Below, one piece after another: positions 4,053-37,092 of a stretch of DNA of 37,092 nt (the first letter of the stretch is position 1; every line of letters begins with the position of its first letter). The stretch is from Nemertoderma westbladi (Eukaryota; Animalia; Xenacoelomorpha), in the NCBI GenBank assembly GCA_032718475.1, contig JAUCBJ010001881.1, positions 1 through 37,092 of the forward strand, read 5' to 3'. The notes under the pieces were generated by a model. It did no database searches, was not told the DNA's origin, and saw only the letters and a program-made list of their open reading frames with translations. Position numbers and translations under genes: made by a program.

Positions 4053-5732
4053 GTTTACCGGTCACTACGGTATTTTGCAACCTTATTGCTTACTGCAATA
4101 AGATCGATAACTGTTATTGTTCGCGCTTTTGAAGACCTTTAGCAGTTTAACCTGCCAAAATTTATATGTCTTTTAGTTAATTAAAACACCTTTAGCATAC
4201 GACAATATTTTATGCTAATAAACAAAACATTAGCCGAAGCCAGCCCATGCGCGATCATTCACCCGATGGCTACGCCCGGGAGGCTGAATTCGGATGCTTA
4301 AATTATTATTATTGCAGTGTAAGATTGCAGTGTAAACCTACTGTATTATTCGATTGATCACTAATAATTAATTTCTGACAGATATTATTGGCTTTCGGGA
4401 AATATTAACAGTTCCTTTAGGACGTGGCGCTCTATCTATTTAAACAGAGCTAGGACTTATACTAAACGCAACGATACTGCTTATGATTAAAGTATAAGGC
4501 GCATTCTTTAGGAAATGCTTTGTTACCAATCACAATCATGCACACTATTCTGCCGACCGTCAGTAAATTTGATCACACATAAAGAGAGCAGCAATTGACT
4601 CATGTAGGGTCTGCTAAATAACATTAGATTCAATACACGCCACATTGATATAAATCGCAATTGTTATGTATAGCCTGTCTCTCTAACCTGTAGTGTATCA
4701 AGAAAATTGGGAATTTTGGGTGATTTATCCGTATTCTCCAAAGGGCAATAATTCATCAACAAATAGATACAATTAATAACTGACGGTAAATAACAGTACA
4801 AACAATATAATTAATAAGTAAAGTTCGGAAGAATAATATGATTACCAGTGAGTTAGTTAGATAGGTCGGTAGGTTGATTAGATAACAGTTATACTTTCGA
4901 TAATTTAAGCAGTTTTACTAGAGTTCTTCCCAAAAGCCGGTGGTCTGGCGAAAAATGGGAACACAACAACAGAATCATATGAAGAATCATATGACTACCT
5001 CACTATACGAGGATACCAACTACCCTTATTCCCCGAAGTTCCCGTCCAACACAGAGGATGAGCATACAGATAGGAAATTCAGTTCAGTAGCTCTGGGATA
5101 GGTCAAAATCAACGCCCACTCAAATTCTATTGGCCGATACGGACAGCAGGGCTGAGGCAACCTCCCTAAGCTGGTTGGCCGATCGAACAGAACCCAGATA
5201 CCTTCGTACAGCCCATCAGCCAATAAGCTGGTAGCTTGCACTATTTTAGCTATAGATCCCTTTTAGAGTATTCTAGCGACTGGGGGGGAACTGGCCAGCA
5301 AGGCAAACGAATCAGTTATCCCACAAAAGCTTTTACAAAGTGCGGGACATTATGATGTAAGTAGACTTTGAGCAAATAATTTTTAGACACAACGTTGTTT
5401 TAATTGACAGCAAATGATTTCATTGGAAAATATGATTGTTTTGCTTCGAAAAGTACTCTATTACGTTGCCTTCTGCCTAAAGCTACTCATAAAACGCGGT
5501 GATCACATTATGCACTCAGTTAACTTGCACTCAGTTAACTGTATTTTTGCAGTTTTAGAGGTAAGGGCGAATAACACCAGATTTCAGAAAGTTAACCAAT
5601 TTTGATGCGGTTTTTTGTATTAAATTTGTAAATCGCATCATATATTGGTTCTGAAAATTGATATGAGAAGCAATAATTCACTTTTTTCAAAATTGGCACT
5701 GCGGTTGACATTTGCGTGGAATGAGCCTAGAT

Positions 5733-6180: not shown

Positions 6181-6520
6181 CGTCGAACTATTATGTACTG
6201 ATTTTCCTGAAGATTACCTCCATTTGGAGTTCCAAAATGTAAAAGAAAAACTTTTAACTTAATTTTGAGACTGTCTCCAGTCTACCGCAGCGCATGCAGT
6301 ACAACACTCTGGAAGAATCTGCTCGGAAGAATATTTATTATTAAAATAACAAATATAGAGCGGCGACTGAATTAATAATAACATAGGCTAAAAAATGTAA
6401 ATCAACCAAAACAGAATCTATCTATGAAAATCGATGACAATGATTTATAGACCATGTATTGCTCTCTTCGATGTAGTTATGTCAATTTCTCCTTCTTGGG
6501 ATATAAATTCTAAATAGTGA

Positions 6521-9500
6521 ACCCCATGTGAGATATCCCACCCAATCTGATACAATGCCACCCAATGTGATACATTGCCTCCCAATGTGATACAATGATA
6601 CCCAATGTGATACAATGATACCCAATGTGATACAATGATACCCAATGTGATACAATGCCTCCCAATGTGATACAATGCTACCCAATGTGATACAATGCTA
6701 CCCAATGTGATACAATGCCACCCAATGTGATACAATGCCACCCAATGTGATACAATGCCTCCCAATGTGATACAATGCCTCCCAATGTGATACAATGCTA
6801 CCCAATGTGATACAATGCCTCCCAATGTGATACAATGCTACCCAATGTGATACAATGCTACCCAATGTGATACAATGCCACCCAATGTGATACAATGCTA
6901 CCCAATGTGATACAATGCCACCCAATGTGATACAATGCCTCCCAATGTGATACAATGCCTCCCAATGTGATACAATGCTACCCAATGTGATACAATCCTA
7001 CCCAATGTGATACATTGCCTCCCAATGTGATACAATGCTACCCAATGTGATACATTGCCTCCCAATGTGATACATTGCCTCCCAATGTGATACAATGCTA
7101 CCCAATGTGATACAATGCTACCCAATGTGATACAATGATACCCCATGTGATACAACGCCACCCAATGTGATACAATGCTACCCAATGTGATACAATGCCA
7201 CCCAATGTGATACATTGCCTCCCAATGTGATACAATGCTACCCAATGTGATACAATGCTACCCAATGTGATACATTGCCTCCCAATGTGATACAACGCCA
7301 CCCAGTGTGATACAAGGCTACCCTATGTGATACAACGCCACCCAATGTGATACAATGCCACCCAATGTGATACATTGCCTCCCAATGTGATACAATGCTA
7401 CCCAATGTGATACAATGCTACCCAATGTGATACAATGATACCCAATGTGATACAATGCTACCCAATGTGATACAATGATACCCAATGTGATACAATGCTA
7501 CCCAATGTGATACAATGATACCCAATGTGATACAATGCTACCCAATGTGATACAATGATACCCAATGTTATACAATGATACCCAATGTGATACAATGCTA
7601 CCATACAATGCCACCCAATGTGATACAATGATACCCAATGTGATACAATACTACCCAATGTGATACAATCCTACCCAATGTGATACAATGCCACCCAATG
7701 TGATACAATGATACCCAATGTTATACAATGATACCCAATGTGATACAATGCTACCCAATGTGATACAATGATACCCAATGTTATACAATGATACCCAATG
7801 TTATACAATGCTACCCAATGTGATACAATGCTACCCAATGTGATACAATGATACCCAATGTTATACAATGATACCCAATGTGATACAATGATACCCAATG
7901 TTATACAATGCTACCCAATGTGATACAATGATACCCAATGTTATACAATGCTACCCAATGTGATACAATGATACCCAATGTTATACAATGATACCCAATG
8001 TGATACAATGCTACCCAATGTGATACAATGCTACCCAATGTGATACAATGCTACCCAATGTGATACAATGCCACCCAATGTGATACAATGCCACCCAATG
8101 TGATACAATGCTACCATATAATGCTACCCAATGTGATACAATGCTACCATATAATCCTACCCAATGTGATACAATGCCACCCAATGTGATACAATGCCAC
8201 CCAAAGTGATACAATGCTACCCTATGTGATACAACGCTACCCAATGTGATACAATGATACCCAATGTGATACAATGATACCCAATGTCATACAATGATAC
8301 CCAATGTGATACAATGCCACCCAATGTGATACAATGATACCCAATGTTATACAATGATACCCAATGTGATACAATGCTACCCAATGTGATACAATGATAC
8401 CCAATGTGATACAATGCTACCCAATGTGATACAATGCCACCCAATGTGATACAATGATACCCAATGTTATACAATGATACCCAATGTGATACAATGCTAC
8501 CCAATGTGATACAATGCTACCCAATGTGATACAATGATACCCAATGTGATACAATGATACCCAATGTTATACAATGATACCCAATGTGATACAATGATAC
8601 CCAATGTGATACAATGCCACCCAATGTGATACAATGATACCCAATGTTATACAATGATACCCAATGTGATACAATGCTACCCAATGTGATACAATGCTAC
8701 CCAATGTGATACAATGATACCCAATGTTATACAATGATACCCAATGTGATACAATGATACCCAATGTTATACAATGCTACCCAATGTGATACAATGATAC
8801 CCAATGTTATACAATGCTACCCAATGTGATACAATGATACCCAATGTTATACAATGATACCCAATGTGATACAATGCTACCCAATGTGATACAATGCTAC
8901 CCAATGTGATACAATGCTACCCAATGTGATACAATGCCACCCAATGTGATACAATGCCACCCAATGTGATACAATGCTACCATATAATGCTACCCAATGT
9001 GATACAATGCTACCATATAATGCTACCCAATGTGATACAATGCCACCCAATGTGATACAATGCCACCCAATGTGATACAATGCTACCCTATGTGATACAA
9101 CGCTACCCAATGTGATACAATGATACCCAATGTGATACAATGATACCCAATGTGATACAATGCCACCCAATGTGATACAATGCCACCCAATGTGATACAA
9201 TGATACCCAATGTGATACAATGCCACCCAATGTGATACAATGATACCCAATGTTATACAATGATACCCAGTGTGATACAATGATACCCAATGTGATACAA
9301 TGATACCCAATGTGATACAATGATACCCAATGTGATACAATGATACCCAATGTGATACAATGCTACCCAATGTGATACAATGCCACCCACTGTGATACAA
9401 TGCTACCCTATGTGATACAACGCTACCCAATGTGATACAATGCTACCCAATGTGATACAATGATACCCAATGTGATACAATGCTACTCAATGTGATACAA

Positions 9501-11224: not shown

Positions 11225-12290
11225 TTTAATTTATCATTAAAATTAATCATTCTTCCACTATTTTTATTGCGTTTTTTTCCATAAATTTAATCATTCTCCA
11301 CTAAAGTTAATCATTCTCCACTAAAGTTAATCATTCTCCGCTAAAATTAATTATTCCATCTTAATTATTGGCATGGGATTCGAAGTACCGGTTCATATTT
11401 TGTTGGTTATGAAAGCCTACCTCTGTAACCTGCTCCTTTCCCCAAATTGGTAACAACATTGCTTATTGTTTTGGTTATAAAAGCCTACCTCTGTAACCTG
11501 CTCCTTTCCCCAAATTGATAACAACACTGTTTACTGTTTTGGTTACGAAAGACTACCTCTGTAACCTGCTCCTTTCCCCAAATTGGTAACAACTCTGCTT
11601 ATTGTTTTGGTTATAAAAGCATCTGCTCCTTTCCCCCAATTGGTAACAACACTGTTTACTGTTTTAGTTATGAAAGCCTACCTATGTAACCTGCTCCTTT
11701 CCCCAAATTGGTAACAACTATGTTTATTGTTTTGGTTATAAAAGCATCTGCTCCTTTCCCCCAATTGGTAACAACACTGTCTACTGTTTTGGTTATGAAA
11801 GCCTACCTATGTAACCTGCTCCTTTCCCCCAATTGGTAACAACATTGCTTATTGTTTTGGTTATAAAAGCCTACCTCTGTAACCGGCTACTTTCCCCCAA
11901 TTGGTAACAACATTGTTTGTTTTGAATATAAAAATCGACCTCTGTAACCTGCTCCCTTTCCCCCAATTGGTAACAACATTGTTTATTGTTTTGGTTATAA
12001 AAGCCTACCTCTGCAACCTGCTCGTTTCCCTTAATTGGTACAACATTGTTTATTGTTTTGGTTAGAAAAACCCCACCCTGTAACGTGCTCTTCTCTTTCA
12101 ATTGGCAACTTCAATATAATTATAGACTATATAGTATATCGTAATTATATAAATATAGTTAGGAGTTGATTTAATTTGGTGGAAAATTAATTAATTTTCG
12201 TGACAAGTGATTAATTTTAGTGATAAGTAATTAAATTTAGTGAAAATGATTAAATTGAGAGAAAGTTATTTTTTTAGTGATGGATAAAAT
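11225..12290. mobile_element. foldback-like composite: inverted arrays of about 20-bp subrepeats flanking an internal satellite
   Basis: Left arm repeats ttaatcattctccactaaa (about 11230-11350); right arm repeats the degenerate complement tttagtgataagtaattaa (about 12170-12270). No TSD identified. Confidence 0.45.
11396..12110. repeat. tandem repeat of about 62 bp, about 11-12 copies
   Basis: Unit ttgttttggttataaaagcctacctctgtaacctgctcctttccccaaattggtaacaacattg with variants. Confidence 0.95.
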
Positions 12291-12321: not shown

Positions 12322-12705
12322 AGGCCTATTTACACGACGTGGCAACTTATAGAGTAACTTTCTCTGCAACTTGTAGAGCAACCCAAGTTGCCGATCAAGT
12401 TTCTCCGTGTAAACACGTAAGTTGCTGAAAAAAGTTGCTCAACTTTTGCGGCAACTTGAAGGAATTTGCGTTGGCGAATTAAAGCGGGTTAATCAAATTA
12501 AATTATCAAAAATTAGCTAGTAGATAAAATGACCCACTATTTTACAGTCAAACTATCCAAGTTGCTTTAAAAGTTGCCGGCAGAGTTGCTGGTGAACTTG
12601 CTGGTAAGTTGCCACGTGTAAACAGCGATTAAATTAAGTTGCTCCAAAAAAAGTTGCTAGTTGCCGAGAAAGTTGCTCTAAAAGTTGCCACGTGTAAACA
12701 GGCCT
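12322..12705. mobile_element. MITE, PIF/Harbinger (Tourist)-type
   Basis: TIRs AGGCCTATTTACACG / CGTGTAAACAGGCCT, 3-bp TAA duplication at 12319-12321 and 12706-12708, many internal gcaactt/aagttgc motifs. Confidence 0.85.
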
Positions 12706-13187: not shown

Positions 13188-13274
13188 GTAAAAACAGATG
13201 GTTAAGGAAAAATATCGTAGTTCGAATTATCAGGATTATAATTATCAGAATTATAAGGAATATATTATTGTAAC

Positions 13275-13740
13275 GCCTAGACTTTATTGTATGAATATTA
13301 GCAGTTTATCAAAAATGGAGACCATCTGGAAATCAGTCCTCAACGACTCTACCTGAACGCAGACTACGATTCAGTGGACACTGCTTGAGAAGTAAGGACT
13401 GGGTCATACCAGATCTACTTTTGGGGACAGAGTAAAGCGCGGATCCGGATTCTACATTTAACATTGTCCCTACGGAAGTCGATTTTTTTTACATTTTTAT
13501 AACACCCAAAAATAAAAATATAACCTGTTCTATTGACTTTAGTTTATTGCTTTGGTTAAAATAATCTGCCACTGTAACCTGCTCCTTTCCCTTAATTGAT
13601 AATTTTGGAATCCGGATCCGCGTTTTAGACCTACCCCTACTTTTGTAACGCAACACAAGGAAAGCGTAGCTGTGGACGACCTGATGTAACATATATAGAC
13701 CAACTTGAAAGCGTTACTGGACTATGGAGAATAGGAAAGG
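13275..13740 (+). mobile_element. 3' fragment of an RTE-type LINE, interrupted by a MITE
   Basis: Translates to RRLRFSGHCLRSKD...DLLL and, after the insert, QGKRSCGRPDVTYIDQLESVTG, paralleling the C-terminus of the RTE ORF at 31876-32940 (NRLRFAGHCFRR...NLVLW). Confidence 0.75.
13424..13636. mobile_element. small MITE with 9-bp TSD (Mutator-like)
   Basis: CTACTTTTG duplicated at 13415-13423 and 13637-13645; imperfect TIRs GGG...TAAAGCGCGGATCCGGATTC / GAATCCGGATCCGCGTTTTA...CCC. Confidence 0.85.
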
Positions 13741-14474
13741 CCACATTTCCATTGTCGGAGTTCAATCAGACAGTGTAAGTTGTATGAATATTAAAAACGA
13801 CTAAACGAGAGTGTTTAAGATATTCATGAATAGGATATTCCCATTATTTATCCACAGACACTAACCCAATCGCATCCTTTTGACAGTATTACGTACGATA
13901 CAATGTTATTGAGATCGATTGCGAATGAACTCGTTAAGAAAAAAGAGTATTAGCTAGAGTAGTATCTATAATTACAAAACTCCGCCGGCGGAGGGACATT
14001 ACTCTTTCTGGGAAAACAGTTAGGATAAGAAGATTATTCAAAGAAGCCCGTAATGCTGGTCGGGTGGGTTATAATGAACATAAGATATATCCTACTGCGA
14101 AGGTGTAATTTGAATGTGGTAATAATTAGGTAAAACTTAGGAAGTACAGAAGTAATTAGGTGTCTGTATGTTGCATGTTGTCACGCCCCAGGAAGCAATT
14201 GACGTAAAGAATCCGTGCGCACGATAATAAGGGACACGAATTTAAAGTAAAATTAATTATTACAACAGTGATATCTGTACAGAGTGGGCTTGGTAGTAAA
14301 CCACTAAAGGTGTCGCGATTAATTTGAGTGAGGGAGATATTTATATGGTGGAAGCGGAAACTATCGGCTGTTACAATAACAACAACTTATCTTCTAGTTT
14401 GTATTTACAAGTAGAAGTTGAAATCAGAGTGCATTCATTTATAGGTGAAGTAAAGTGAAGTTTTCTTCGCCTGT

Positions 14475-14670
14475 TAATAATAATAAGTTAGGCCAGGGAT
14501 TACGCACAAAGTCTGACTGCGACTTGTGCGGTCCCCCCAGAACTATACTCCCCAGAGGTAGATGGTTCACATCTAGAATGGAAGGCATAGATGCGCCCTG
14601 GCTGGTTCCTTTAAAGCATTAGAAATCGAACCTGGCCCGCTTGCAGGGAATGAACCCAAGACCTCCGGAG
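14475..14670 (-). mobile_element. 5'-truncated tRNA-derived SINE-like element
   Basis: Minus strand: B-box-like GGAGGTCTTGGGTTCATTCCC, a 3' hairpin CGCACAAGTC-gcagtca-GACTTTGTGCG and a short (TTA)n tail. Confidence 0.55.
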
Positions 14671-15074
14671 AAGATAATACAACGGATTTAAAAACAAGTG
14701 CTATGAAACCATATTTAGTAATTCACAACACACAAAGAGAAAATCGAGTCCAATCATTCACTCTCTGATGGGGTCATGCTATAAATAGAAGACGCCACAC
14801 TTAAACTAAAACAAGCACTAAAATTTAGACACAAAAAGTACCAAACCATAAAAATTATTAAAATTTCACAAAAACGATAAACGTTTAACTAAAGTAAAAC
14901 CAGTTGTAATGTAATATTAAACTTTGGAAAAGAAAATATTTTTGAATGTCTAACACGATAAATAAAACACTAAAAAATAGAGTGCACTTAAAAGGGTTGT
15001 TCATAAATGACGTCACGGCCAATGGGGTGGGGAAATTGGGAGAGTGAGAAAAGCTGAAGTTATATAATATCGAG

Positions 15075-16085
15075 TTAATTATTACAACAATCAATATTAG
15101 ATATTTCGGATGATTTCACTGATGTATGCGGCACGTGAGTGGCAAAGTGTTTTCTAAGAGTATTTATAGCGAGTCTACTAATATTGTGATCATCTTGTTC
15201 TCTCCGCAGAGCATCTTCTAACTCCTTTATATCAACCTTCAACTTATCGACTACCACCATATGGGTGAAGCTTAACGACTCTCGAACATTCTTTAAATCT
15301 AATTCGTGACGTTTCGTTATATTAGTTAGTTTTAAACTCAGTTTGTCTGTCTGTGTCAATGAGTTCGTGAGTTCGGTGTTGGCTTTAGATAATCGGGATT
15401 GTAATTCTTCAACATTATTGCGGAAATGCTCCAACTCTTTCTGCCGCAGTTCAGCGCTTTTATTGATTACTTTAGATTGTTTCTCCAATTCGCGGGATTT
15501 GGCGCCACTTTCTCGATTTTTCCTTATCGATTTCACCAATTTACTATTTCTGTCTTCCAGTAAATCCGTGGTTTGTTTTAATTGGCGCTCTAACTCGGAT
15601 ACCTTAGCGACGAGCTCCCTATTGGTTGTTACTAAGGACTTGTTTACATCACTTAACGACGTATAATGACGTCGCAATGCGTGCAGCTCCGCGGGCGACC
15701 ATATAGACCAGTCGTGGTTGTCGGGTTGCAGTGCGTGACGTCGCCCTGGGAACTGAGTTTTCACTGACCTCCGTTTAACTTTTGTAACCCGACATGCCGG
15801 CTCGGCATCCGTCGTAACATCTACGGTTTGGGTGTCGCGAGGAATCGATTTACTTCCTGGTGGGTAAAATCTATCAATTTTTTTCAGTATTTCGTAGAGT
15901 TCCTTGGTTTCCTCATTATCGACGGAGGCCGGAGTGGTTTTCCCGTCCGCGGGAACGTAGAATTCGGATAACGAGGTGTCGATTTTATGCGCGAAATCCT
16001 CCAAACTGTATTGGTAAGTCGGAGCGAAGAGTTTCCCGATCCAATTAGAATCATATTCTGTGATGCCATCAGTTTCGTTTGCCAT
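15075..16085 (-). CDS. single-exon coiled-coil protein, CCDC160-like (336 aa)
   Basis: Intact ORF with a long C-terminal coiled coil. N-terminal W..LFAP..S.ED, central W...EL..LR and C-terminal A...LRKHF resemble CCDC160 as I recall it; not verified by search. Confidence 0.65.
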   Translation of the reverse strand: MANETDGITEYDSNWIGKLFAPTYQYSLEDFAHKIDTSLSEFYVPADGKTTPASVDNEETKELYEILKKIDRFYPPGSKSIPRDTQTVDVTTDAEPACRVTKVKRRSVKTQFPGRRHALQPDNHDWSIWSPAELHALRRHYTSLSDVNKSLVTTNRELVAKVSELERQLKQTTDLLEDRNSKLVKSIRKNRESGAKSRELEKQSKVINKSAELRQKELEHFRNNVEELQSRLSKANTELTNSLTQTDKLSLKLTNITKRHELDLKNVRESLSFTHMVVVDKLKVDIKELEDALRREQDDHNISRLAINTLRKHFATHVPHTSVKSSEISNIDCCNN

Positions 16086-16448
16086 TGGCTGATGTAGCAG
16101 TGCCGAATATTCGATTTAAATAAAGTATTTTAATTTATTCTACCGGTACTAATCAAACTCCAAAGGATATAGCGCAATGGGAATAGGGTGAGCACGCGAC
16201 AGGTAAGGTTGGTAGCTTGGTACCGGTACTGTTACTGGTATTCTGTGCTTTTATATTGGCATAGTTGTCGGTTGCCTGGCAATCAATTTCAAACCAAAGA
16301 CAATACAGTTTGGCGGGATATTTAACTTTGAAACAGTTGGGCTGGGTACTGGGAATAAATTGCAGTACTTACTACAGTCGACAGTTTACAGTAGTGGTAC
16401 CAGAGCTACAAGCTACCGAATTCTGGTGATAAGAGATATGAATTAATA
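16086..16448. promoter_or_regulatory. putative bidirectional promoter between the CCDC160-like gene and PIG-W
   Basis: 363 bp between divergent ATGs; RFX X-box-like GTTGCCTGGCAAT at 16271-16283; E2F-like TTTGGCGGGA at 16309-16318. Confidence 0.55.
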
Positions 16449-17289
16449 ATGGTTCAATTTAAAGATGAAAGGGAGAGATTTGTGTCAAATTTAAGAGGAA
16501 CTACAATTGTCGAGATATTTCTACACATCGCAATTATTCCAGCATTGTTCCTCTTACAGTCTGCGGTGTCCACCACTCTACTACCACCGGTGCGATCCCA
16601 ATGGATTCACTTCGCAGTCGACTACCTATGTCTTAACGTGGCCCTCGCTCTAAGCGTCACCGTTCTAGCCGATAACATTGCGGAGCTGATCGGCTTCACG
16701 GTAGTCGTATCGATGTTTCTCCTGTGCGTCCAGCGGTTATTCATAACCGACCGTAGGCTCGAGCCCTACCATGGAGGGGAGCTTCTCTACGCGGATATGA
16801 AGCAATCCATCTCGCGATTTAAATGCGGCGCCAATGTTATTACCTCGCTGTGTATCCTGGCCGTCGACTTTCCGATATTCCCCCGCCGACTCGCTAAAAC
16901 CGAGACCTACGGTACCGGGTTGATGGACTTCGGCGTGAGTTTTTTCGTCGTTTGTAACGGGATAGTCGCCCCTGAAGCCAGACCGAACAAGATCTCACGG
17001 CGGGAGGCCGTGGGTAAAGCGATAAATTCATCAGTGCCCCTCCTATTCCTCGGAATGATTCGCGTTGTGGCGTTAAAGACGGTCGATTACCAGGAACACG
17101 TGTCGGAATACGGAACTCATCTCAACTTCTTCTTTATATTAGCCGGAGTAAAGATAATCTCGAGTCTTATATTCACTGTATTCCAACTTTCCTGGGCTTT
17201 CCTCGTGGCCGTCAGTACCGCTATATTCCACGAGGTGGCGTTGGATTTCGGTATCCGTGACTACGTGCTTCTCACGGAGACCCGTTTAG
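16449..17289 (+). CDS. PIGW: PIG-W / GWT1 GPI inositol acyltransferase, exon 1
   Basis: Motifs FVSNLRGT, CILAVDFPIFPRRLAKTETYGTGLMDFGV and YQEHVSEYGTHLNFFF are characteristic of GWT1/PIG-W; ends ...TRL-G at TTTAG|GT. Confidence 0.95.
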
Positions 17290-17292
17290 GTC

Positions 17293-18079
17293 ACATGAGA
17301 GTAAAAACCCAAGCGATCATTTTGTGAACATCCAATGATATTGCCTGTTTTATAAATGCTTTAAGTTGTTATGGGATGTTCTGTTTGATTGGTTGTTATG
17401 TGATTTACTTGCTAATCTTGGTCAGTATTAAATACATTAAATCAACAAGCACTGATCAATGTGTACAGATATACAGTAGGAGTCAATATGTTTCACAGGG
17501 GGCATGATGATTTTCGAAAACATATCTTGGTAAATTAAAAGCACATCCCGGCGAATTAGCAATGATAATTATTAAGTGAGGGAAAGTATTATTTATATTA
17601 TATCTGTATTACATATTATTTACCTACATTAAATGTCCAGTTACTGCTCATCTGCTGTGTATTGTACGATATGACAGTATTTTACAAAGATTAAAGCTGT
17701 AAAGAGGCCTGGCCTCTACAGCTCTATCCTAGAACCTAGAGGAAGAGTCCATCAATTGTATTATAATCTTAAGTACATTCCTGCATTCTTTCATTATTAC
17801 GTCAGTCACTGCAAACAATCACTCATAGCGTCATTGGTAAGTGTGTTAGAGTCTGAGAGTACATGTAGAGCTACCGGCATACTGCTAATATTTAAATGTA
17901 AACTACTAAGTTACATTGATCGCTTGTTGATTTAGTGCATTTAATACTGGCCAAGATTAGCAAGTAAATCACACAACAACCAATCAAACAGAACATCCCA
18001 TAACAACTTAAAGCATTTATAAAACAGGCAATATCATTGGATGTTCACAAAATGATCGCTTGGGTTTTTACTCTCATGT
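17293..18079. mobile_element. non-autonomous DNA transposon with TIRs of about 165 bp and 9-bp TSD, inserted in the PIG-W CDS and forming the putative intron 17290-18085
   Basis: ACATGAGAGTAAAAACCCAAGCGATCATTTTGTGAAC... at 17293 is the near-perfect reverse complement of the sequence ending at 18079; GTTTAGGTC at 17284-17292 and 18080-18088. An alternative reading is CAC..GTG termini with a 7-bp TSD. Confidence 0.95.
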
Positions 18080-18085
18080 GTTTAG

Positions 18086-18600
18086 GTCTCCTCGACGCCA
18101 ATAGAGAAGGTCTCGTCGCTACTATGGGATACGTCGCCATCTACATCGCCGGAGTCTGGCTGGGTCGTCAGTTACTTAGCGCCCAGAATTTCTCCGGAGT
18201 TGTTAGTCGACTAGCTTGGACCTGTCTGTGGTCCACCTTGGCTTATATCTTAGTTGTGGAGAATATCGACGAGGTTTCCCGCAGGCTAGCCAACCTATCC
18301 TTTATAGTGGCTTCGATAATGCTCTCAGTTACAACAATATTTCTATTGACTTTCGTGAATATTATAGTTAAATCGACCTCGGCATTCCAACCACGCTCAT
18401 TGCTAGAAGACAGCGTTAATAGAAACGCCTTAGCTTATTTCCTATTAGCTAATTTGGGAACGGGTCTAGTAAATTTCCTTTTCGACACGATTTACACCAA
18501 AGATCATCACGCCTTCATAATTATCTCTATTTACATGTTTATTCTCAGTCTTATCATATTTTCTATGCATATGTCGAACATTTCCACTAAGTTCTGGTGA
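18086..18600 (+). CDS. PIGW: PIG-W / GWT1, exon 2 (joined protein 451 aa)
   Basis: GLLDANREG, VSRRLANLSF and NRNALAYFLLANLGTGLVN match the GWT1 domain; 841+515 nt = 452 codons in frame. Confidence 0.93.
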
Positions 18601-19652
18601 TGGTAAGCGTATATGTAAGAAAACATTAACAACGTATTGTATATATCATTTGTATATCAGTTCAATATCAAATAATGGAGGCTTATGGAAGCGTTAACAG
18701 CTAGCTGCAAGACAACATGGGGCGGTATTAACACACAGCGACTGGTGGATTCATTATCGGAATTGTAAACAGAACCAACAACATATAAGCCCAGACAGGA
18801 TGTTAGTTATCTTTATCTACCACCCCAGTCAGCCAACCAACTGATAAAACTATGTCAACATAATAGGTAGGAAGTTTGAGCTGCTGACATGTTGAATTAT
18901 TGGACTAGGTATTAATATTTGATTAGAGAATTGATTGCCTGTATCTCTATAAGATCTGTTCAAAGCCTGTTTAACAACTCACTTCTTGTGCAATTTAGTT
19001 TGATTCGGTATTCTATATAAATTAATATTGCCATATCTGTAGTTTATCATAAATTATTTCTTCCTAGAGTATCATTATTGCTGTACTTTAAAAATCAAAG
19101 CCCAATTGGCCAATTCCAAACCAATTGGAGTAGGTTATCTTATTTGTGGCAACGGAAAGAATCACCAACTGTATTTATTACTTATTTATTCTTCAGATTA
19201 ACCTATAGGCCTAATGTTGTTGACATTTATGTATATCATAGCGCGGTCAGAGCCAGATCAGCAAATACATATGGTCGATTTCCATTGAACCTTCATTGTA
19301 TGTCGCCTTTTCGTAGCAACAGATGACCTGCTACATCCATTTTATTAAATCCCAGCTGGAGGCGGAAGGAATTAAACGACGTTAAATTAATATTCAGGGG
19401 TCAATAAATATATGGAAATGTATTACTCTGAACGTGCTAACAAATCCAAGTAAATCATTAAATTATCCTTTTTGTGGCTTTTGTAGGTGATGTGTACTTA
19501 CAATCTATCAATTGCGACCTTTTTTGAGCGGATAGAGCCTAATCAATCAATCGAATTATAATAACGAATCCAATCAATTATACAATGTAAATAGGACAAT
19601 AAGATAATGCTCTCCATAGCGAAAAATATCAACCGGCCCTATTGGGGCTCGA

Positions 19653-19696
19653 ACCCGGTACCTAGGTTTCAAACTTCTGGTTATCATCAGCCGGGT
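19653..19696 (-). ncRNA. type I hammerhead ribozyme motif
   Basis: Minus strand: ACCCGG CTGATGA TAAC-CAGAA-GTTT GAAA CCTAGG TA CCGGGT. Perfect 6-bp stem I, both core boxes, short stem II, palindromic stem III (ACCTAGGT), predicted GUA cleavage between 19659 and 19658. Confidence 0.85.
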
Positions 19697-21857
19697 GATA
19701 TTTGATTCACCGCGTCACTCGCCCCACAACAATTCACTTATTATTATGAATCCAATCAATCGAATTATAATCACTAATCCAAGTGAATTTCTGTGAATTT
19801 CCATTAGATACCATTTTTTGTAAACCAATTGAATAATAATAATTGGCGATTCACTACCCCATTAACAGACGAGTGTGTGTTGCACAGCAGGGCTGTTTAT
19901 TACTTAACGAGGAAATTAATTTCTTCACTTTGGAAATTTGATGTACATTTATCGAGTTTTATGTATAGAAATGTTGAGCTCCACTCCAATCTACATAGAC
20001 AGTGATTTATTATGTTGCAATAGTTTACTTTTCAGTCCATATTACAAAAAATTGAGAATGTGATTATTAATTATTGTGTAAATGCGTTTTGAAATGGCAG
20101 TTACACATCAAATCCTCATGCAGTATTTAGGACGTTGATAGACACCATTAAAGTTAGTTACTTAGTTACTGAGACCTGACACTTCCCTATTCAGGACGCC
20201 GTGCCAAAGAGCTCTAAGTGGACTGAGAGACTTTATGATTCTGACTTTAGGACAGTCGTAATTAATTACATAGTTCTAGTCTGTGAAAAGAGCCATATAT
20301 CACAAGTTTTAAGTAATTTTTTTTTAATATTTGCAGCCTTTTATTGTAGGAGTACAAAAAATAAATAATAAATTAGAATATATTTTTTTACGCCAGGTTC
20401 ACAGTCACAGTTATTATTTATGTACTTATTGGTACTAGTTATTGCCTGTTGCTGAACCATTAACGGCTTATTAATTTATATTTTATTTACACTCTGCCAT
20501 ATCACCGAGGATCGGGGTACTCGAATTGACTTTCTTAGAACAGTGACCCCCGGGTAATGACCAGTCCACTATAGGGTGGGCCGTGGCCGTTCATATTGAA
20601 CCATAATACCATATTATTACACGAAATATATTGGACTATGAATTGGTTGGTATGCGGCGTCGAGCAATGTTTTTTCTTTCAATCAATTCATCACAACTTC
20701 CTTCAAACCTTATATTGTGACTGGACTTTTACTATTGAGATTTCTCACTCACTATTGAGATAGCGTGTATAAACAATATAATTTAATCGGATTTCACAGG
20801 TTCAGTTCCAAACATTTGATGTTGAATCTTTGCACTATGCATGTGATAGATTACCACGAACCACGACAATGCAAGAGTTCGGTTGAATCCTGGGTCAAGG
20901 ATGTAAAATGATAACTAAATAATAATATTATTGCATTGTACTAAATAACCTCTAGATATGAGACTAGGTCGGGATATTTCCATATCACTAAAGTTATTGT
21001 CAACGAAACTGTTTTGAGTTGGAGATAACATAAGTATATAACAGCAGGAGAGCTCATACTCGCACCAATGTGCCACTAATATAATCATCCTGTGCCCTGC
21101 CTATCACTATATATAATTCAATTGTTATCCATATCCAGTGTAGTTATTATATTAGAACCATATTTAGCCGGTTAGCAGTACTTAGCAACACTTTACAATA
21201 TATATATATATTATTTACTGAAGGATAGAATGTTTGGTTATATTTTACTTAGGAATTGATTTTTATTATTTAACGAAACGATTTATTCGGAAAATAGGAA
21301 GTAAATCAAACGATAAGCCGAAACTCAAACCGACCGATCGACTTAGCCATTACCCCGTCCAATTGACTTGCTGAAGTTTTAAGCCATTAACGAATTGCAA
21401 GAACACGACTCATACAAACTTCACTCACGCGTATCATCAAACAAACTACGTGCATTTGAATAAAGGAAAGCCCGGCCGGGTCACAGTCCATTTTTACATG
21501 TGCCGGTATCCCAAGCAATTCCTCGCAGCCAAATTGCAAATTAGATTACCCGGTTAACACGGGAGTTTTTAACTAACCTAACCGTAGCACGAGGCATTCA
21601 TTACGTTACAAAACAATCATTCAATATAAAGGTAAAGGGGACGTTATTTACAAGATTGTTTAAATATGTCAGCGAGATAACATTTAATTGGCTGCAAAGT
21701 GCAAATGTATCAGATAACAATTTATAAATATGATTGATTTCTTGAATACGTGGAAAATTATGTATAAATTGGAAAATATTCTCTATTGTAAAACATTTTG
21801 ATAGTCATTGCCGAATTTTTAACACGATTTGATTGGGTGATATTGAAAAATAACTAA

Positions 21858-22565
21858 ATGATGTACAGCGTTTTGTTGTCATTACTTGTTGCCATGGTAT
21901 CAACAACTGCGAGCGGTGAGAATGCCCCGGTATATATACGGCTAGTTAAACCGGATGCTGAGACCGCAGATGTGGAGTTTGTGGACGTCAAAGACCCGAT
22001 TACTGGCGACGTCATCGGAACAACCGCGGTGTTCGCCAACGAATCTGCCGTAGAACACAACTCTCTTAGAATTTCCTGTTTCACTCCGAGTCTAACAATG
22101 ATTAAAAGATTGATGGCATTGTATTATTTCAGCGATTTGGAAGGACCTTACCCGAATAACTTAAGAGACTTGACTGTTTATGGGAATAACCTTTCAACAA
22201 CATGGGAATTTAACGGAGTGCCTGTCTACGAGTGGATTCTAGGTATAGACGTGAAGCTCATTCGAGGTCGCTATTTCTACGTGTGCGGCGGTTACTCTAA
22301 TGAAACGTGGGTCTACTCGAGAGGGAAACACTATACAAACCAACCAAGGTATCGGGGGAACCAATCAAGGTATCAGGTAGTTCATGCAACCTTCCAAGAC
22401 TCAATGGAGAAAGAGCTAGATACGAGCGACAAAGATAAAAGTAAACCTAACAACCCAGCCGTTCAAAGGCTATACAATGAAGGGAACACTTTACAGCGAT
22501 GTTATTGGAGGAATGTTTTACTATCAATTCTTACACTATCTGTCTTTATTCTCTCGTATGAATAA
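21858..22565 (+). CDS. single-exon protein of unknown function with signal peptide and C-terminal hydrophobic tail (235 aa)
   Basis: Intact ORF; N-terminal MMYSVLLSLLVAMVSTTASG, C-terminal VLLSILTLSVFILSYE, several N-X-S/T sites; AATAAA overlaps the stop. Confidence 0.7.
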   Translation: MMYSVLLSLLVAMVSTTASGENAPVYIRLVKPDAETADVEFVDVKDPITGDVIGTTAVFANESAVEHNSLRISCFTPSLTMIKRLMALYYFSDLEGPYPNNLRDLTVYGNNLSTTWEFNGVPVYEWILGIDVKLIRGRYFYVCGGYSNETWVYSRGKHYTNQPRYRGNQSRYQVVHATFQDSMEKELDTSDKDKSKPNNPAVQRLYNEGNTLQRCYWRNVLLSILTLSVFILSYE

Positions 22566-23133
22566 ACATTGGGTATGATTATTGAGGGAAGATGTTTTGA
22601 CCTTTTTTTTAACGAGTCAACAGCTAGTCAATGGGATGTAAATATATTTCGGTTATAAAAAGGTTTACAACAGACAGACAGAAAAAACACGATATTTTGA
22701 TTGAAACCGTTATTAATGGCGGAACCATCATAAAGAACCTTAACTAATTGTGCTAACGTGCAGTAAGATTTGTAAGGCTTGAGTACACAATTGTAATTAT
22801 ATTTTAAATGTAAATGTTATGGTTGGGGTTTAGGGGCGGTTCAACAAAAAAGTTAAACAATTAATTTTGTTGCAGAATGTGACATTGAGGGTAACTTTAT
22901 ATAGCTGAAAACTCATGATGGCATTTATGAACGACCCTTAGTTTCAGTTACTATTTGAGAATACTCAAAAATTAATGTGAATTTGGAATTTTGAACAGCC
23001 CTGAACCCTGATGTTATAATAATTTACCCGTTTGGTATACCGGAAGTTAACTAATACTACATACCTGTAATATAACTTATTTATAATGAAACATTAATTT
23101 ATAATTTATACTTTCTGTGTAAGTAAAGGATAT

Positions 23134-27700: not shown

Positions 27701-27988
27701 AGAAACCAGAGTCACTTAGGTTACAGTTGGGGAATCACGTCACAAACCACATCATAGTTTGTTTTATAGGACAACCACGAGTAGACAGAACTGACAGATA
27801 GGGGAAGACTGTGTCTAGGCCTACCTAAAAAAACAGCTGATTTCGAGAACTAATTAAACTGTAATCTGTGTTTATAATTATCCACTGTGACCTGGTTATT
27901 TCCCTCAATTTATATGTATCATTGTTAATTAGCCGATATGGGATTTGCGACGTCAAGCTGCCCCATAATATGTGCCCCCCCGACCCAC

Positions 27989-28560: not shown

Positions 28561-28929
28561 TTATGATTATAAAATGTAATGGTTATTAATTTTAATAACA
28601 AAGCATTTTAGATAATTTTAGTAAATTTTTTGAGTTCTCTTTCTTCTATAATTTTAAGTGCACTGTGCAAATTGACAATAGCGGGTGCTAGTGCTGTCAA
28701 TTCCTGACATTGGTCAATTGGTTGGGGGGGGGGGGGGGGGGGGGGGGGGTGGTACTGGAAAAAGGGAAGGGGAGGGCAGAGCGGGGGAAACAAAACAACG
28801 CGGATTGGGTTTGTTTTCTCTGTCGATTACTTTATGTTTAGCGTTATTTGAGGTAAATATTATATAAGTATAAAAAATGTATATATATAAAATATAAATG
28901 TAAAAAAATATGTATATATAAAAAAAAAA

Positions 28930-30530
28930 GTATGGCCCCTGGGTGGTTCCGCAGGGGGCTAGAACTGGTTCTGAGTGTGTGTTTCCTATGTAGACGGTGT
29001 GTGTTCGGTTGTGTAGGAAACTTGTGACCAGTTTGTTACGAATCCTTCGTATACCGTAACTATCTAATTTATTTAGTAATATATTGTGCTGCAAGGTATC
29101 AAAAGCTTTTTAAGGTCTATCGATATTAAGAGTTCTGATTCTTGTAATTCTAGAATATTTATTAGTTTTTCAGTTACAGTAAGTATGGCGTCAGTAGTTG
29201 TAGTGCGCTTTCTGAAACCGTATTGATTGTGAGTAAATATTGAGTTTGAGTACTTGTCTAACTGACTGTCTGTAGTCTGTTAATCGGGTCAGTAATGTTT
29301 GACACTATGGCTTCATACCAACTCACTAAAATGATCAATACAATATGGGGGTTTTCGGGGTCGGTGATTTAATTTCTGCTGTCACTTTTAATGTTTGGTG
29401 GTATCTAAAATGCATGTCTGACAGTTTGTCTGTCTGTCTGGCTTCTGAATTTTGACGGACAAACTGATAGACGGAAAGACAGCGATAACTCGAGAACTAA
29501 AAAAGATATTGTCAAACCGTTTTAAGATTTGAACTCCCCAGTAAATTATGCATCAGATGAAATAAAAAACTAAAAATGTGAAAAGTTAACACAAGGAGGG
29601 GGTTACCCCCCCCCCCCCCCACCTTAATTAAAATTAGAATAATCGTAAAAGTAGCGGCTATCGGGAGGGTTAAAAATGCATGAGTAATTTTGGACTCTCA
29701 TAAATGTACCCAAGTAATCAGTAGTGCCTATTCCTGTCAGAAAAATACCGCCAGAAAAACACCAGGAGTAACTATATATTCGGTCACGTATATCTGTAGA
29801 TATATGGTCGATCAATGACTTTGAAATCTGTGTAATTCTAGATGGAACTATAATTGTTGAAGGGAGTGAGATTCTATGGTGTGTAAATATTTCATGGAGT
29901 TATTAGTTTTTTAAAAGGTCTATGTTAAAGTCCCCTGTTAAAATTATATATAGATTTTGAGTAAGTAAATTGTAGATGGTTTTATTTAAGTTTTCCAAAA
30001 AATTGTTTCATCCGATTAATGTTGGTTTTGCAATTTTTTTTTATCGTGATATACTAACCCACGAAGATTTGCAGTGTTCAATTGAAATGTCAGTTCGGTG
30101 TATGTAGTATGGCTGCACCCCTCGGTTTCGCTTTCCGTATTGTCGGTTGTCTGTAAGTGGAGTTGAGTAGCCATGTATCTTCAAAGTTGTAAGATCAGTA
30201 TTGTCAGTTAAAAACGTCTTAGTCAGTTAGTAAAAGCAAGTACGTCAAATTATTGGTCTAGATTAAAGTAATCAATTGTAGCTTACAATTTTTATTAAGG
30301 CTCCTACAGTTTAAGTGATATACTGAAAATGAGTTGTTTTTAGGGAGAACGTTAAATTTAGTATCAGAAAAATATTTACCGTGAGTATTATTAGAATCTA
30401 GGTTTTGATTTGGATCTATATTTTGAAATGTGGCGTCGTAATCGTCAAAGTTAGCAGGTAAGTCAAAGTCGACTTCGACATTGTAAAGCGAAAATCACAC
30501 GTTGTTTGGTTTTGGAGGCTCATAGGGTAA
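28930..30530 (-). mobile_element. decayed CR1/L2/Jockey-group LINE (endonuclease and RT fragments) with nested insertions
   Basis: Minus-strand QYGFRK...KAFDTLQHNILLNKLDSYGIR...GTTQG at about 28935-29230 and ILTGDFNIDLL at about 29915-29945; frameshifted. Confidence 0.75.
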
Positions 30531-30619: not shown

Positions 30620-32958
30620 GTCTCTGGAAATGTATTGTTTTCGGCTGGAACCCAGTTTAAGAAGCGAACTGGAAAGCTATGGACTCATAGTGGAGCCAGT
30701 GGTCACAAGTGACAGATAGACCACATCCTGTTTCGTAGGAAATACAGGAGCTCTATACAAGACTGTAATGCATTTACACTTCGACCCTTCTCCAGTGATC
30801 ACCGCCTTATTGTGGCCAAGGTAAGACTTAGTATTCGTGCCAGCAGAACAACGAAATCTGCCTTGCCGCGGCATGACTGGTCCTCTCTGTTGCAGCAGCC
30901 AAGTGTGAGATCCAGCTTCACACTAAAGCTGAGCAACAGGTATGAGGTTCTTGCCTCTGAGGCGGCAGATCACTGTGAGGGCTATACTGCCTTCACAGAA
31001 GCAGTGAAGTTAGCAGCTGCAGAAACAGTTCCTGTATAACCTCGAAACAGGAAAAGGGCCCCCTGGACTGACAACAAAATTCAGAAGTGCCGAAATGACC
31101 CCTATAAGGCGCAGAAAGAGTCCCCACTCAAACAGACTACAGCGGCCAAGAATGCAGTTAGGGCTGCATCTAGGTCCCTGAACAGGCAGTACTCTGTTAA
31201 TCTACAGGAGCTAATAAACCAACAGGTTGATGCCATCAATGATGCTGACGACAGCAGGCAATCATCCCAGGCATGGAAATCGATCAACTTGCTTACTGGT
31301 CGGAAAAGCCAACCAACCACCAAGGTTAAGGCTGAATCACCAGCCGATCGCCTCAATGGTTGGAAGGCCTACTTTGAAAAGCTCCTCAATAATGACAGGG
31401 TATTGCCTGATAACTTTATAGAAGTAAAAGTGTCTTAGTCTGTAGGCCTACTCCCAGAAATTCCCATTGGCGATATCTCCCTTGAAGAAGTGAATGCTGC
31501 TGCAAAGAGCATTAAGACAAATCGTGCCAGTGGAGTAGATGGTGTTCCCCCGAGGTCTTTAAAATACCCGAGTGTTTAAAGCTCATCTATCCCATCATAG
31601 TAGACATGTGCCGAACAACAAGAGTCCCACAAGAAATGAAAACAAATAAGTTGGTGCCAGTTCCCAAGAAGGGCAACCTAACACTCTATGGTTCTTTTCG
31701 GGGAATCTCATTGATCTCGATTGCTGCAAAGCTATACAATAGAATTATATTAAATCGCATCAGGGATCCCATTGAGAGACTGATCCGTGGAAATCAGAAT
31801 GGGTTCCGTAGAGGTCGTGGGACCATAGAGCCCATTTTGGCACTTAGAATGATAATTGAAGATTGAAGATCACGTATGCTCAGCATACTTTCATTATATG
31901 GGATTCCTGATGAAATTATTGCAGCAATCAGATCAGTATACGATGGTTCGACAACATTTGTGTCTACTGTTGACGGTGACACAGAACCATTTGAAGTGTT
32001 ATGGGGCGTCCTCCAGGAAGACACACTTGCACCATTCTTGTTCATAATTGTGGTTGACTATGTTCTACGCATGTCCTTAGATCATCATAATGATGGTGGG
32101 GTGATGATAACTCCACCTACTGGCTCCAGAAGACGAGGAAATCCTGCCAAGTACCTAACTGATCTAGACTTTGCTGATGACTTAGGAGTACTCTCAGAAT
32201 CACTAGAGGGAGCCCAGCGGCTCCTCAGCTCATTAGAACATGCTGCTTCTAGTGTTGGTCTTTTTATTAACTCCAGAAAGACCAACATTTTGACAGTTAA
32301 CTTTGAAAGTCCTCAGCAAGTCTCTGATCGGATGAGCATAAGCTCAAAGGATGGTATGCTTGAGCATGTGGACGACTTCTGTTACCTGGGATCATGGATC
32401 CGGAAGTCAGGTGAGGCCCTTCGAATACGCAAGGGAAAGGTATGGGCAGTCTTGAATAGGCTTTCCAGGATTTGGAAGTCACCGAGAATTAATCGGAAAC
32501 TTAAGGTCCGATTATTTAGAGCAGCAGTAGTTCCAGTACTCCTCTATGGGAGTCCATGCTGGGCTCTAACTGCTGAGGACACCAAATCTCTGGATGGCAC
32601 ATTCGCAAGAATGCTACGCCTGGTTCATTGTGTCAAGTACAATGCACACATCTCCAACCAGACACTATATAACATTGGAGGTGTCTCATTGGTTCCCCCA
32701 AGCTTGACACTAGAACAAAATCGCCTCCGCTTTGCAGGACATTGCTTTCGCCGTGAGGACCAGCCAGTACATAATCTTGTTCTTTGGCAGCCTCATGTAG
32801 TGAATAAGCATGGTGGACCGCCCATGATTTTCTTGGGACGCATCTTAAAGGACACTGGCCCTGAAGATGAGGATGATCTAGCAAATGTCATGGGTGATAG
32901 GGAGTTGTGGCGGCGCAATTTTGTCGACAAGCCGGCATAGCATTCTTAAACACACACC
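30620..32958 (+). mobile_element. 5'-truncated RTE-clade LINE, inactive, antisense in the first CK2 beta coding-region intron
   Basis: End of the endonuclease domain, RT motifs VPVPKKG, FRGISL, NQNGFR, GVLQEDTLAPFLF, DLDFADD, FCYLGS; stops, frameshifts and loss of the D..KAFD block near 31862; short (CA)n tail. Confidence 0.9.
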
Positions 32959-37020: not shown

Positions 37021-37092
37021 TGTAAAAGCTTTTGTGGGATAACTGATACGTTTGCCTTTGCTGGCCAGTTCCCCCCCCGGCGCTGGAATACT
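37021..37092 (+). mobile_element. start of a second copy of the same LTR family
   Basis: TGTAAAAGCTTTTGTGGGATAACTGAT...GAATACT is the reverse complement of 5267-5337 with a few differences. Confidence 0.85.

What the first reader, a model, noticed from the sequence alone, without database searches (positions are those of the whole stretch)
17284..18088. Transposon-made intron in PIG-W: both splice sites come from the target-site duplication
Seen: a 787-bp element with nearly identical TIRs of about 165 bp sits in the PIG-W CDS, flanked by GTTTAGGTC on both sides. The duplicated word contains AG|GT, so the left copy gives a GT donor (17290) and the right copy a TTTAG acceptor (18085). The right TIR adds a pyrimidine-rich stretch, and I see no other AG for about 58 nt upstream. 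Removing 17290-18085 gives TRLGLLDANREG with no added or lost residue; unspliced, the protein stops at 292 aa and lacks the C-terminal GWT1 domain. Known: PIG-W/GWT1 acylates inositol in GPI synthesis, and introner-type transposons create introns in some lineages, commonly carrying at least one splice site themselves. Inference: a recent, scarless intron gain at a proto-splice site, possibly from an undescribed intron-generating family. TIR pairing could juxtapose the sites and offset the weak donor GTCACA.
Basis: partly seen in the sequence, partly recalled or inferred. Interest (0 to 1): 0.9.

Follow-up and report, generated by a model that had tools for sequence, protein, structure and literature searches.

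The report
Transposon in PIG-W, possible new intron
A small jumping DNA element sits in the middle of an animal's gene for a GPI-anchor enzyme, and the bases copied on both sides of it would let the cell cut it out exactly like an intron, but the signals are poor, no RNA data could be examined, and this route to new introns is already known, so it is likely a leaky newborn intron or simply a damaged allele.

Summary
A 787-bp non-coding element with 170/167-bp inverted ends (96% alike) and a 9-bp direct repeat (GTTTAGGTC) splits an otherwise intact PIG-W/GWT1 frame in an unplaced invertebrate. Removing 17290-18085 gives a normal-looking 451-aa protein; unspliced, it stops at 292 aa. Splicing is not shown: no genome was held and no RNA run was listed. 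The acceptor is good, but the donor (TAG|GTCACA) is far weaker than the host's own donors. A much stronger donor inside the element (17837) competes for the same acceptor and gives truncated proteins. The predicted 170-bp stem buries donor positions +3 to +8 and the whole branch-point/pyrimidine region, so it could as well block splicing as help it. AGGT lies in 1.8% of possible 9-bp targets in this gene: suggestive, but expected now and then in a large scan. No second copy was found, so no intron-making family is shown. The mechanism is in print (Yenerall and Zhou 2012; Florenciella introners, Gozashti 2022). Best reading: a young, leaky proto-intron (0.40); dead allele 0.35; efficient fixed intron 0.17. 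New member of a known kind, modest interest.

The parts
16449..17289 (+). PIG-W/GWT1 coding sequence, 5' part (codons 1-280 plus one base); holds D140 and K150, which align with yeast GWT1 D145 and K155
   Evidence: Pfam PF06423 E 3.5e-72; alignment to PDB 8xij; role of D145/K155 from PMC11502805 passages
17284..17292 (+). Left copy of the target-site duplication, GTTTAGGTC (7-bp reading: 17285-17291); supplies the candidate donor TAG|GT at 17290
17293..17462 (.). Left terminal inverted repeat, 170 bp; holds a weak cryptic donor at 17301 and the in-frame stop at 17325-17327 of the unspliced frame
17463..17912 (.). Non-coding interior (loop of the hairpin); no Pfam match in six frames, no Rfam match; 17538-17585 resembles 27899-27946
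17834..17844 (+). Strong competing donor TTG|GTAAGT (GT at 17837) inside the element
   Evidence: second-best predicted U1 pairing among 129 GT sites in 16150-18100; all 13 outcomes tested that use it stop at 283-357 aa
17913..18079 (.). Right terminal inverted repeat, 167 bp; supplies the T-rich tract and branch-point-like words of the candidate acceptor; cryptic acceptor CAG at 18027
18080..18088 (+). Right copy of the target-site duplication; supplies the candidate acceptor TTTAG| ending at 18085
17290..18085 (+). Candidate 796-nt phase-1 GT-AG intron (predicted, not seen in RNA)
18086..18600 (+). PIG-W coding sequence, 3' part, to the stop; holds the NREG motif and the last membrane helices
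   Evidence: Pfam E 5.5e-38 for the frame that holds it; match to yeast GWT1 296-323 and 355-483; 23 of 25 conserved columns kept
16203..16211 (+). Strong donor CAG|GTAAGG upstream of the start codon; likely a 5'-UTR intron of PIG-W (inferred)
   Evidence: best predicted U1 pairing of 129 GT sites
13188..23133 (-). 9,946-nt minor-class (AT-AC) intron of the CK2-beta gene, inside which PIG-W and the insertion lie on the opposite strand
   Evidence: ATATCCTT donor, CCTTAAC branch site, AC end; the five exons join into a 224-aa CK2-beta frame

Best explanation
A young non-autonomous DNA transposon with long inverted ends (likely Mutator-like) has inserted at an AGGT site in the PIG-W coding sequence, and it likely behaves as a leaky newborn intron, cut out exactly in only a minority of transcripts. 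Shown: the insertion, the duplicated AGGT, and the exact restoration of the frame on paper. Inferred steps: (1) a transposase made a staggered cut and repair duplicated the target; (2) U1 would bind the weak left AG|GT while the RNA is still being made, before the right arm exists; (3) U2AF/U2 would have to load on the right arm's T-rich tract before the 170-bp stem closes; (4) most transcripts would instead stay unspliced or use the strong donor at 17837 and encode truncated protein; (5) the small exact fraction would give wild-type enzyme and soften selection against the allele, which would explain why an insertion is seen in a conserved gene.
For: TIR, TSD and frame restoration. The exact model scores best of five against a profile of 120 homologs (410 bits; alternatives 385-394; unspliced 281), and its spacing before the invariant Asn (120 of 120) equals that of 46 of the 116 homologs scored. 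The acceptor is tied for the best pyrimidine count among AG sites in 16200-18120 (12 of 16; host acceptors 14, 10, 11) with a 58-nt AG-free zone. AGGT in the target has a chance of 1.8% (0.4% for YAGGT). No decay on either side: 57 of 66 conserved columns kept before the junction, 23 of 25 after. Young age: identical TSD copies, and all 4 substitutions lie in the inner 62 of 167 positions (P 0.018 if spread evenly). The model is described in PMC3443670 (passages). That exact splicing of maize Ds is only a few per cent is recalled from Giroux 1994, of which I saw only the title.
Against: No spliced read was seen. The donor matches 5 of 9 consensus positions, lacks +3 purine, +5 G and +6 T, and ranks 29 of 129 GT sites by a rough U1-pairing score (-4.0 kcal/mol against -7.5, -9.8 and -12.1 for the three major-class CK2-beta donors). 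It may not be used at all. The stem (-274 kcal/mol) is predicted to leave +3..+8 and acceptor positions -30..-6 fully paired; masking by stems suppresses sites in Drosophila minigenes (PMC2724269 passages). Restoring the frame is automatic for any TSD insertion, so a good-looking empty-site protein is no evidence of splicing. An intact frame is also expected of a very young dead allele. The finding was picked from a large scan because of this coincidence; one search lists 7 related reports from other genomes.
Confidence: 0.4

Rival explanations
1. Dead or nearly dead allele. The insertion is not spliced at the TSD sites; the AGGT is a coincidence. It survives as a recent heterozygous insertion captured in this haplotype, or because another PIG-W copy exists.
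For: Weak donor and strong internal competitor; splice signals buried in the stem; very young element; 1.8% is not rare across the many insertions a large scan meets (inference); other inverted-repeat elements and retro-element remains in the window point to a transposon-rich genome. The 292-aa product would lack the part matching yeast 296-483, which includes pocket residues Y400/F404/Y408.
Against: A null in a conserved GPI enzyme should be short-lived, so insertions that are seen should be enriched for tolerated ones (inference; the same argument is in PMC9860276 section 10). The acceptor is good and the TSD holds YAGGT (0.4%).
Confidence: 0.35
2. Efficient, fixed intron: the element is removed in most transcripts and the allele is neutral.
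For: Exact frame restoration; good acceptor; selection argument above; stems can bring distant splice sites together (PMC2724269 abstract passage); observed introners are generally spliced well.
Against: All three major-class host donors seen have +5 G and +6 T, this one has neither; no sign yet of decay of the stem ends or improvement of the donor; competing donor at 17837.
Confidence: 0.17
3. Imprecise in-frame splicing from sites carried by the element: donor 17301 to acceptor 18027, leaving 69 nt (23 extra residues) in the mRNA.
For: In frame and stop-free here; the retained piece is stop-free in 2 of 3 phases; similar to Aureococcus introners that add codons (PMC9860276 Fig. 2F legend).
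Against: Both sites are weaker (donor -3.6; acceptor 7 of 16 pyrimidines, 14-nt AG-free zone) and lie inside the stem; a 23-residue hydrophobic insert would land five residues before the invariant Asn and lowers the profile score to 392; a multiple of three arises one time in three.
Confidence: 0.05

Closest known systems
Intron gain by transposon insertion into AGGT (Yenerall and Zhou 2012, PMC3443670, Fig. 1b and section 'Transposon insertion'; passages read)
   Same: Exactly this model: insertion into AGGT duplicates it, giving donor AG|GT and acceptor AG|G with no change to the coding sequence; 35 transposon-insertion gains are tabulated for Oryza, Drosophila, Oikopleura and Zea.
   Different: Their tabulated cases were accepted as introns; here splicing is untested.
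Introners that take both splice sites from the insertion site (Florenciella sp. family 2; Gozashti et al. 2022, PMC9860276, Fig. 2E; passages and section 10 read)
   Same: The element carries neither splice dinucleotide; both come from the target; mRNA length unchanged.
   Different: Those are multi-copy families of short introns (the example spans about 67 nt; family medians 30-654 nt) in an alga. This is one 796-nt copy in an animal with 170-bp near-perfect arms. Introners were found in only two animal groups in that survey, later also in a sea urchin and a tunicate (PMC12130899 passages).
Maize Ds in shrunken2-m1 (Giroux et al. 1994; title seen in a reference list, text not held; content recalled)
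   Same: Recalled: a TIR element plus one copy of its target duplication is spliced out exactly in a small share of transcripts, the closest model for a leaky allele.
   Different: Ds is a hAT element with 11-bp TIRs (abstract) in a plant; RNA evidence existed.
Non-autonomous Mutator/Foldback elements of animals, e.g. Tm1 (PMC3169594 passages)
   Same: About 1 kb, no coding capacity, long TIRs about 93% alike, mostly 9-bp TSD without target preference.
   Different: Tm1 TIRs are built of repeated motifs and a transposase partner is known; here no partner was found and no sequence link was tested.
Galileo-type P-superfamily elements (PMC4168063 passages)
   Same: Long TIRs and 7-bp TSD, matching the alternative 7-bp reading.
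   Different: Galileo prefers the palindrome GTANTAC; TTTAGGT is not a palindrome. The 7-bp reading needs two chance base matches (1 in 16), the 9-bp reading one (1 in 4).

Membership tests
Introner (Gozashti et al. 2022, 2025) | Derived from a transposable element (TIR and/or TSD) | tested here: met
Introner (Gozashti et al. 2022, 2025) | Splice dinucleotides at the element's boundaries that restore a frame | tested here: met
   GT 17290, AG 18085, 451-aa frame
Introner (Gozashti et al. 2022, 2025) | Actually spliced in RNA | not testable with these tools
   no run was listed, so no reads could be laid; sequence predictors are mixed
Introner (Gozashti et al. 2022, 2025) | At least 4 similar introns in genes of different paralogy groups (PMC12130899 section 12) | not testable with these tools
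   no genome held; one copy in the 37-kb window; 0 exact TIR matches in metagenome and viral contigs, which need not hold this animal
Introner (Gozashti et al. 2022, 2025) | Intron absent from orthologs or empty alleles | tested here: inconclusive
   nearest homologs are about 40% identical proteins without genomic context; no related locus. The intact TIR/TSD itself argues for a recent gain
Introner (Gozashti et al. 2022, 2025) | Element ends or target choice that favour splicing across insertions | tested here: inconclusive
   either end gives a T-rich tract, but the end sequence gives no donor consensus at any AGGT offset; target preference cannot be read from one copy
Mutator-like (MULE) non-autonomous element | 8-10-bp (mostly 9-bp) TSD | tested here: inconclusive
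   9 bp under the likelier reading, 7 bp under the other
Mutator-like (MULE) non-autonomous element | Long TIRs | tested here: met
   170/167 bp, 95.9%
Mutator-like (MULE) non-autonomous element | MULE transposase in an autonomous partner with the same ends | not testable with these tools
   0 Pfam families in 6 read-through frames of the element; no genome
Galileo-type P element | 7-bp TSD | tested here: inconclusive
   possible reading
Galileo-type P element | Palindromic target GTANTAC | tested here: not met
   target TTTAGGT against PMC4168063; a single site says little about a family
PIG-W/GWT1 inositol acyltransferase | PF06423 along the whole protein | tested here: met
   profile 2-268 and 252-435 of 437 on the two frames
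PIG-W/GWT1 inositol acyltransferase | Catalytic Asp and Lys (yeast D145, K155) | tested here: met
   D140 and K150

The most novel reading that the evidence does not exclude
This is one copy of an active long-TIR Mutator-like family that is making scarless introns in an invertebrate genome, by landing in or being retained at AGGT sites, and the host spliceosome removes them efficiently although a 170-bp RNA duplex covers the donor tail, branch point and pyrimidine tract. It would be a rare animal introner family and a natural test of splicing through long double-stranded RNA.
Probability: 0.07. Interest if true: 0.7.

Novelty: new member of a known kind. Interest (0 to 1): 0.3.

Why it matters
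New introns are rarely caught at birth in animals. If RNA confirms exact removal, this is a clean single-event example of the AGGT proto-splice-site model in a conserved enzyme gene. It is also a ready-made minigene for asking whether a long perfect stem helps or blocks splicing, and how a very weak donor competes with a strong internal one. If it is not spliced, it is an ordinary transposon hit. The mechanism is known either way, so only a multi-copy family or efficient splicing through the duplex would surprise a specialist.

Tried and rejected
Genome: none held. Sequencing runs: no RNA holder listed for 16449-18600; this is no evidence either way. TIR-end patterns: 0 matches in metagenome contigs and viral contigs; only the two arms in the window with up to 3 mismatches. 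PIG-W loci in metagenome contigs: 0 of 90 pattern hits confirmed. Close orthologs: none; the best hits are about 40% identical over the query, with a few short stretches up to 52%. Exact look-up: 0 of 5 window proteins are in the collection, one of them given one codon too long. Earlier scan notes: nothing by place or sequence. Rfam: 0 hits in the window. Transposase remains: 0 Pfam hits in 6 frames. Host lineage: CK2-beta exon 1 is identical over 58 aa to the top PDB CK2-beta chain and exon 2 is at best 89% identical to lancelet and sea-star proteins; this says animal, likely invertebrate, and no more. The protein atlas gave no answer for two neighbouring ORFs. Giroux 1994 was not held. Searches for a paper on spliced Mutator insertions, on PIGW exon number and two others gave nothing useful; I make no claim that such papers do not exist. 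Rejected: an old intron later filled by a transposon (TIR and TSD reach exactly to the coding junction); tandem genomic duplication (the insert is not a copy of the exon); an assembly artefact (near-identical but not identical arms and a clean TSD; not testable without reads, about 0.02); long-dead pseudogene (no frameshift or loss of conserved residues). The U1-pairing and pyrimidine scores are rough home-made proxies, not trained splice-site models, and rest on three host introns.

Full report
1. What is in the sequence. The window holds a PIG-W/GWT1 gene on the + strand whose frame runs from ATG 16449 to the stop at 18600 and is cut in two. Both halves match Pfam PF06423 (profile 2-268 and 252-435 of 437) and yeast GWT1 in the PDB. 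Between them lies a 787-bp insert, 17293-18079, flanked by GTTTAGGTC at 17284-17292 and 18080-18088. Its ends are inverted repeats of 170 and 167 bp, 95.9% identical, with 4 transitions and one 3-bp indel, all in the inner part; the outer 105 bp are identical. The insert is AT-rich (GC 0.34 against 0.50 and 0.43 for the coding parts), has no Pfam match in six read-through frames and no Rfam match. It is a non-autonomous cut-and-paste DNA transposon. The base next to each arm also pairs, so the boundary can be read as a 9-bp duplication with AC...GT ends or a 7-bp duplication with CAC...GTG ends. The first fits Mutator-like elements (PMC3169594 passages), the second Galileo-type P elements (PMC4168063 passages). 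The 9-bp reading needs fewer coincidences; one copy cannot decide.

2. The intron on paper. GT at 17290 and AG at 18085 both lie in the duplicated word under either reading. Removing the 796 nt between them gives 451 codons without a stop; leaving them gives 292 aa. Of 58 in-frame, stop-free GT/AG pairs around the element only this one restores the length exactly. Against a profile built from the 120 listed homologs it scores 410 bits; three alternative in-frame models score 385-394 and the unspliced product 281. This shows that the empty site was a normal gene. It does not show splicing, because removing an element plus one TSD copy always restores the original. What is special is only that the TSD contains AGGT: 24 of 1348 possible 9-bp targets in this coding sequence do (1.8%), and 5 of 1348 contain YAGGT.

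3. The host. PIG-W lies, on the opposite strand, inside a 9,946-nt AT-AC minor-class intron of a CK2-beta gene (23133 to 13188). CK2-beta exon 1 is identical over 58 residues to the top CK2-beta chain in the PDB, and exon 2 is up to 89% identical to lancelet and sea-star proteins. PIG-W has no homolog much above 40% over its length. The host is an animal, likely an invertebrate from a poorly sampled group. Its three major-class CK2-beta introns are conventional: all have +5 G and +6 T. Nothing suggests a relaxed spliceosome like those reviewed in PMC11282704 (parts 1-2 of 5 read).

4. Would it be spliced? For: the acceptor is good. It has 12 pyrimidines in 16 positions, tied for best among AG sites in 16200-18120 and within the host range of 10-14, and no AG for 58 nt upstream. 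Against: the donor TAG|GTCACA matches 5 of 9 consensus positions and ranks 29 of 129 GT sites in 16150-18100 by predicted pairing to U1 (-4.0 kcal/mol; host donors -7.5, -9.8, -12.1). The element carries a near-perfect donor of its own, TTG|GTAAGT at 17837 (-11.0), 249 nt from the same acceptor. Using it alone leaves the stop at 17325 in place, and all 12 pseudo-exon routes tested through it stop at 283-357 aa. The arms form a stem of -274 kcal/mol (whole fold z -27). The stem begins at donor +3 and leaves only the last five intron bases outside, so U1-pairing positions, branch point and pyrimidine tract are predicted to be paired with probability near 1. Stems can both mask sites and bring them together (PMC2724269 passages); here the geometry is masking. 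Splicing would need factors to load on the nascent RNA before the stem closes. These scores are rough and rest on three host introns.

5. A second route. A weak donor in the left arm (17301) and an acceptor in the right arm (18027) give an in-frame product with 23 extra residues. Both sites are weaker and inside the stem, and the insert would sit five residues before an Asn that is invariant in 120 of 120 homologs. I give it 0.05.

6. Is the gene alive? The model keeps 57 of 66 highly conserved columns before the junction and 23 of 25 after it; median identity to homologs is 37% and 33%, as for two other invertebrate proteins used as controls (39/35 and 37/33). The catalytic Asp and Lys are present. 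A strong donor at 16203 suggests a 5'-UTR intron and so a transcribed gene (inferred). The unspliced product would lack the part matching yeast 296-483, with pocket residues Y400, F404 and Y408, and is probably inactive (inferred). No decay is what both a working gene and a very young dead allele would show; identical TSDs and identical outer arms say the insertion is young.

7. Weighing. Inference: null insertions in conserved genes are removed quickly, so those seen should be enriched for tolerated ones, and the AGGT match favours some rescue by roughly fifty-fold per insertion. But the finding was picked out of a very large scan for that very match, and 7 related reports from other genomes came up (unchecked AI notes, not support). 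The sequence signals argue against efficient splicing. I put a leaky newborn intron at 0.40, a dead allele at 0.35, an efficient fixed intron at 0.17, the +23-codon route at 0.05 and artefact or other at 0.03. No RNA run was listed and no genome was held, so none of these could be tested directly.

8. Comparison with what is known. Yenerall and Zhou 2012 describe this exact model, insertion into AGGT with both sites from the duplication, and tabulate 35 transposon-insertion gains including animals (PMC3443670 passages). Gozashti et al. 2022 show Florenciella introners that co-opt both sites from the insertion site (PMC9860276 passages). It works like such an introner if spliced; it cannot be filed as one, because the definition needs at least 4 similar introns in unrelated genes and RNA support (PMC12130899 section 12 and passages), and neither could be tested. 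The element's end gives no donor consensus at any AGGT offset, which speaks against a family specialised for making introns. What differs from the published examples I read is the animal host, where introners are scarce, and the long near-perfect stem over the splice signals.

9. Verdict. Observation confirmed; interpretation partly supported; new member of a known kind; interest 0.3. The boldest reading not excluded, an efficient long-TIR introner family in an animal, has a probability of about 0.07 and would deserve 0.7.

Noticed in passing
window 33769-10212, - strand: A five-exon CK2-beta gene (224 aa) spans most of the window; its third intron (23133-13188, 9,946 nt) is a minor-class AT-AC intron that hosts three long ORFs, including PIG-W.
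   Followed up: partly
window 16085-15075, - strand: An ORF of about 336 codons from its first ATG, rich in charged helical-looking sequence, head-to-head with PIG-W and on the same strand as the CK2-beta intron that holds it; no Pfam family and no homolog among 5504 candidates.
   Followed up: partly
window 21858-22565, + strand: A 235-aa ORF with hydrophobic stretches at both ends (could be a secreted or GPI-anchored protein; inferred by eye), no Pfam family, inside the same intron.
   Followed up: partly
window 33785-33772 and 16170, - strand: A minor-class branch-site word followed by AC just before the CK2-beta start codon suggests a second AT-AC intron in its 5' UTR; a minor-class donor word ATATCCTT also stands at 16170, upstream of the 16085 ORF.
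   Followed up: no
window 17538-17585 and 27899-27946: 48 bases of the element's interior match, at 79% (E 4e-6), a stretch near the start of CK2-beta intron 2 on the other strand; the match fades beyond that. A shared repeat fragment or captured host DNA.
   Followed up: partly
window 12322-12705: A second small inverted-repeat element, flanked by TAA on both sides, with AGGCC...GGCCT ends; Harbinger/Tourist-like by recall.
   Followed up: partly
window 11275-12264: Degenerate inverted ends around an array of roughly 60-bp and 125-bp tandem units, foldback-like; no TSD found.
   Followed up: no
window about 6450-9450: A long 20-bp tandem satellite, copies about 90% alike.
   Followed up: no
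window 30713-32940 (+), 28714-29109 (-), 35731-36762 (-): Broken non-LTR retrotransposon reverse-transcriptase frames; RVT_1 confirmed for 31867-32937, the others judged by eye.
   Followed up: no
window 2-1864, - strand: A 621-aa open frame running off the window, with Glu/Ala/Arg/Lys-rich repeats and no Pfam family.
   Followed up: no
window 5267-5337 and 37021-37092: Two inverted copies of a 72-bp sequence, 93% alike, 32 kb apart; probably a dispersed repeat.
   Followed up: no
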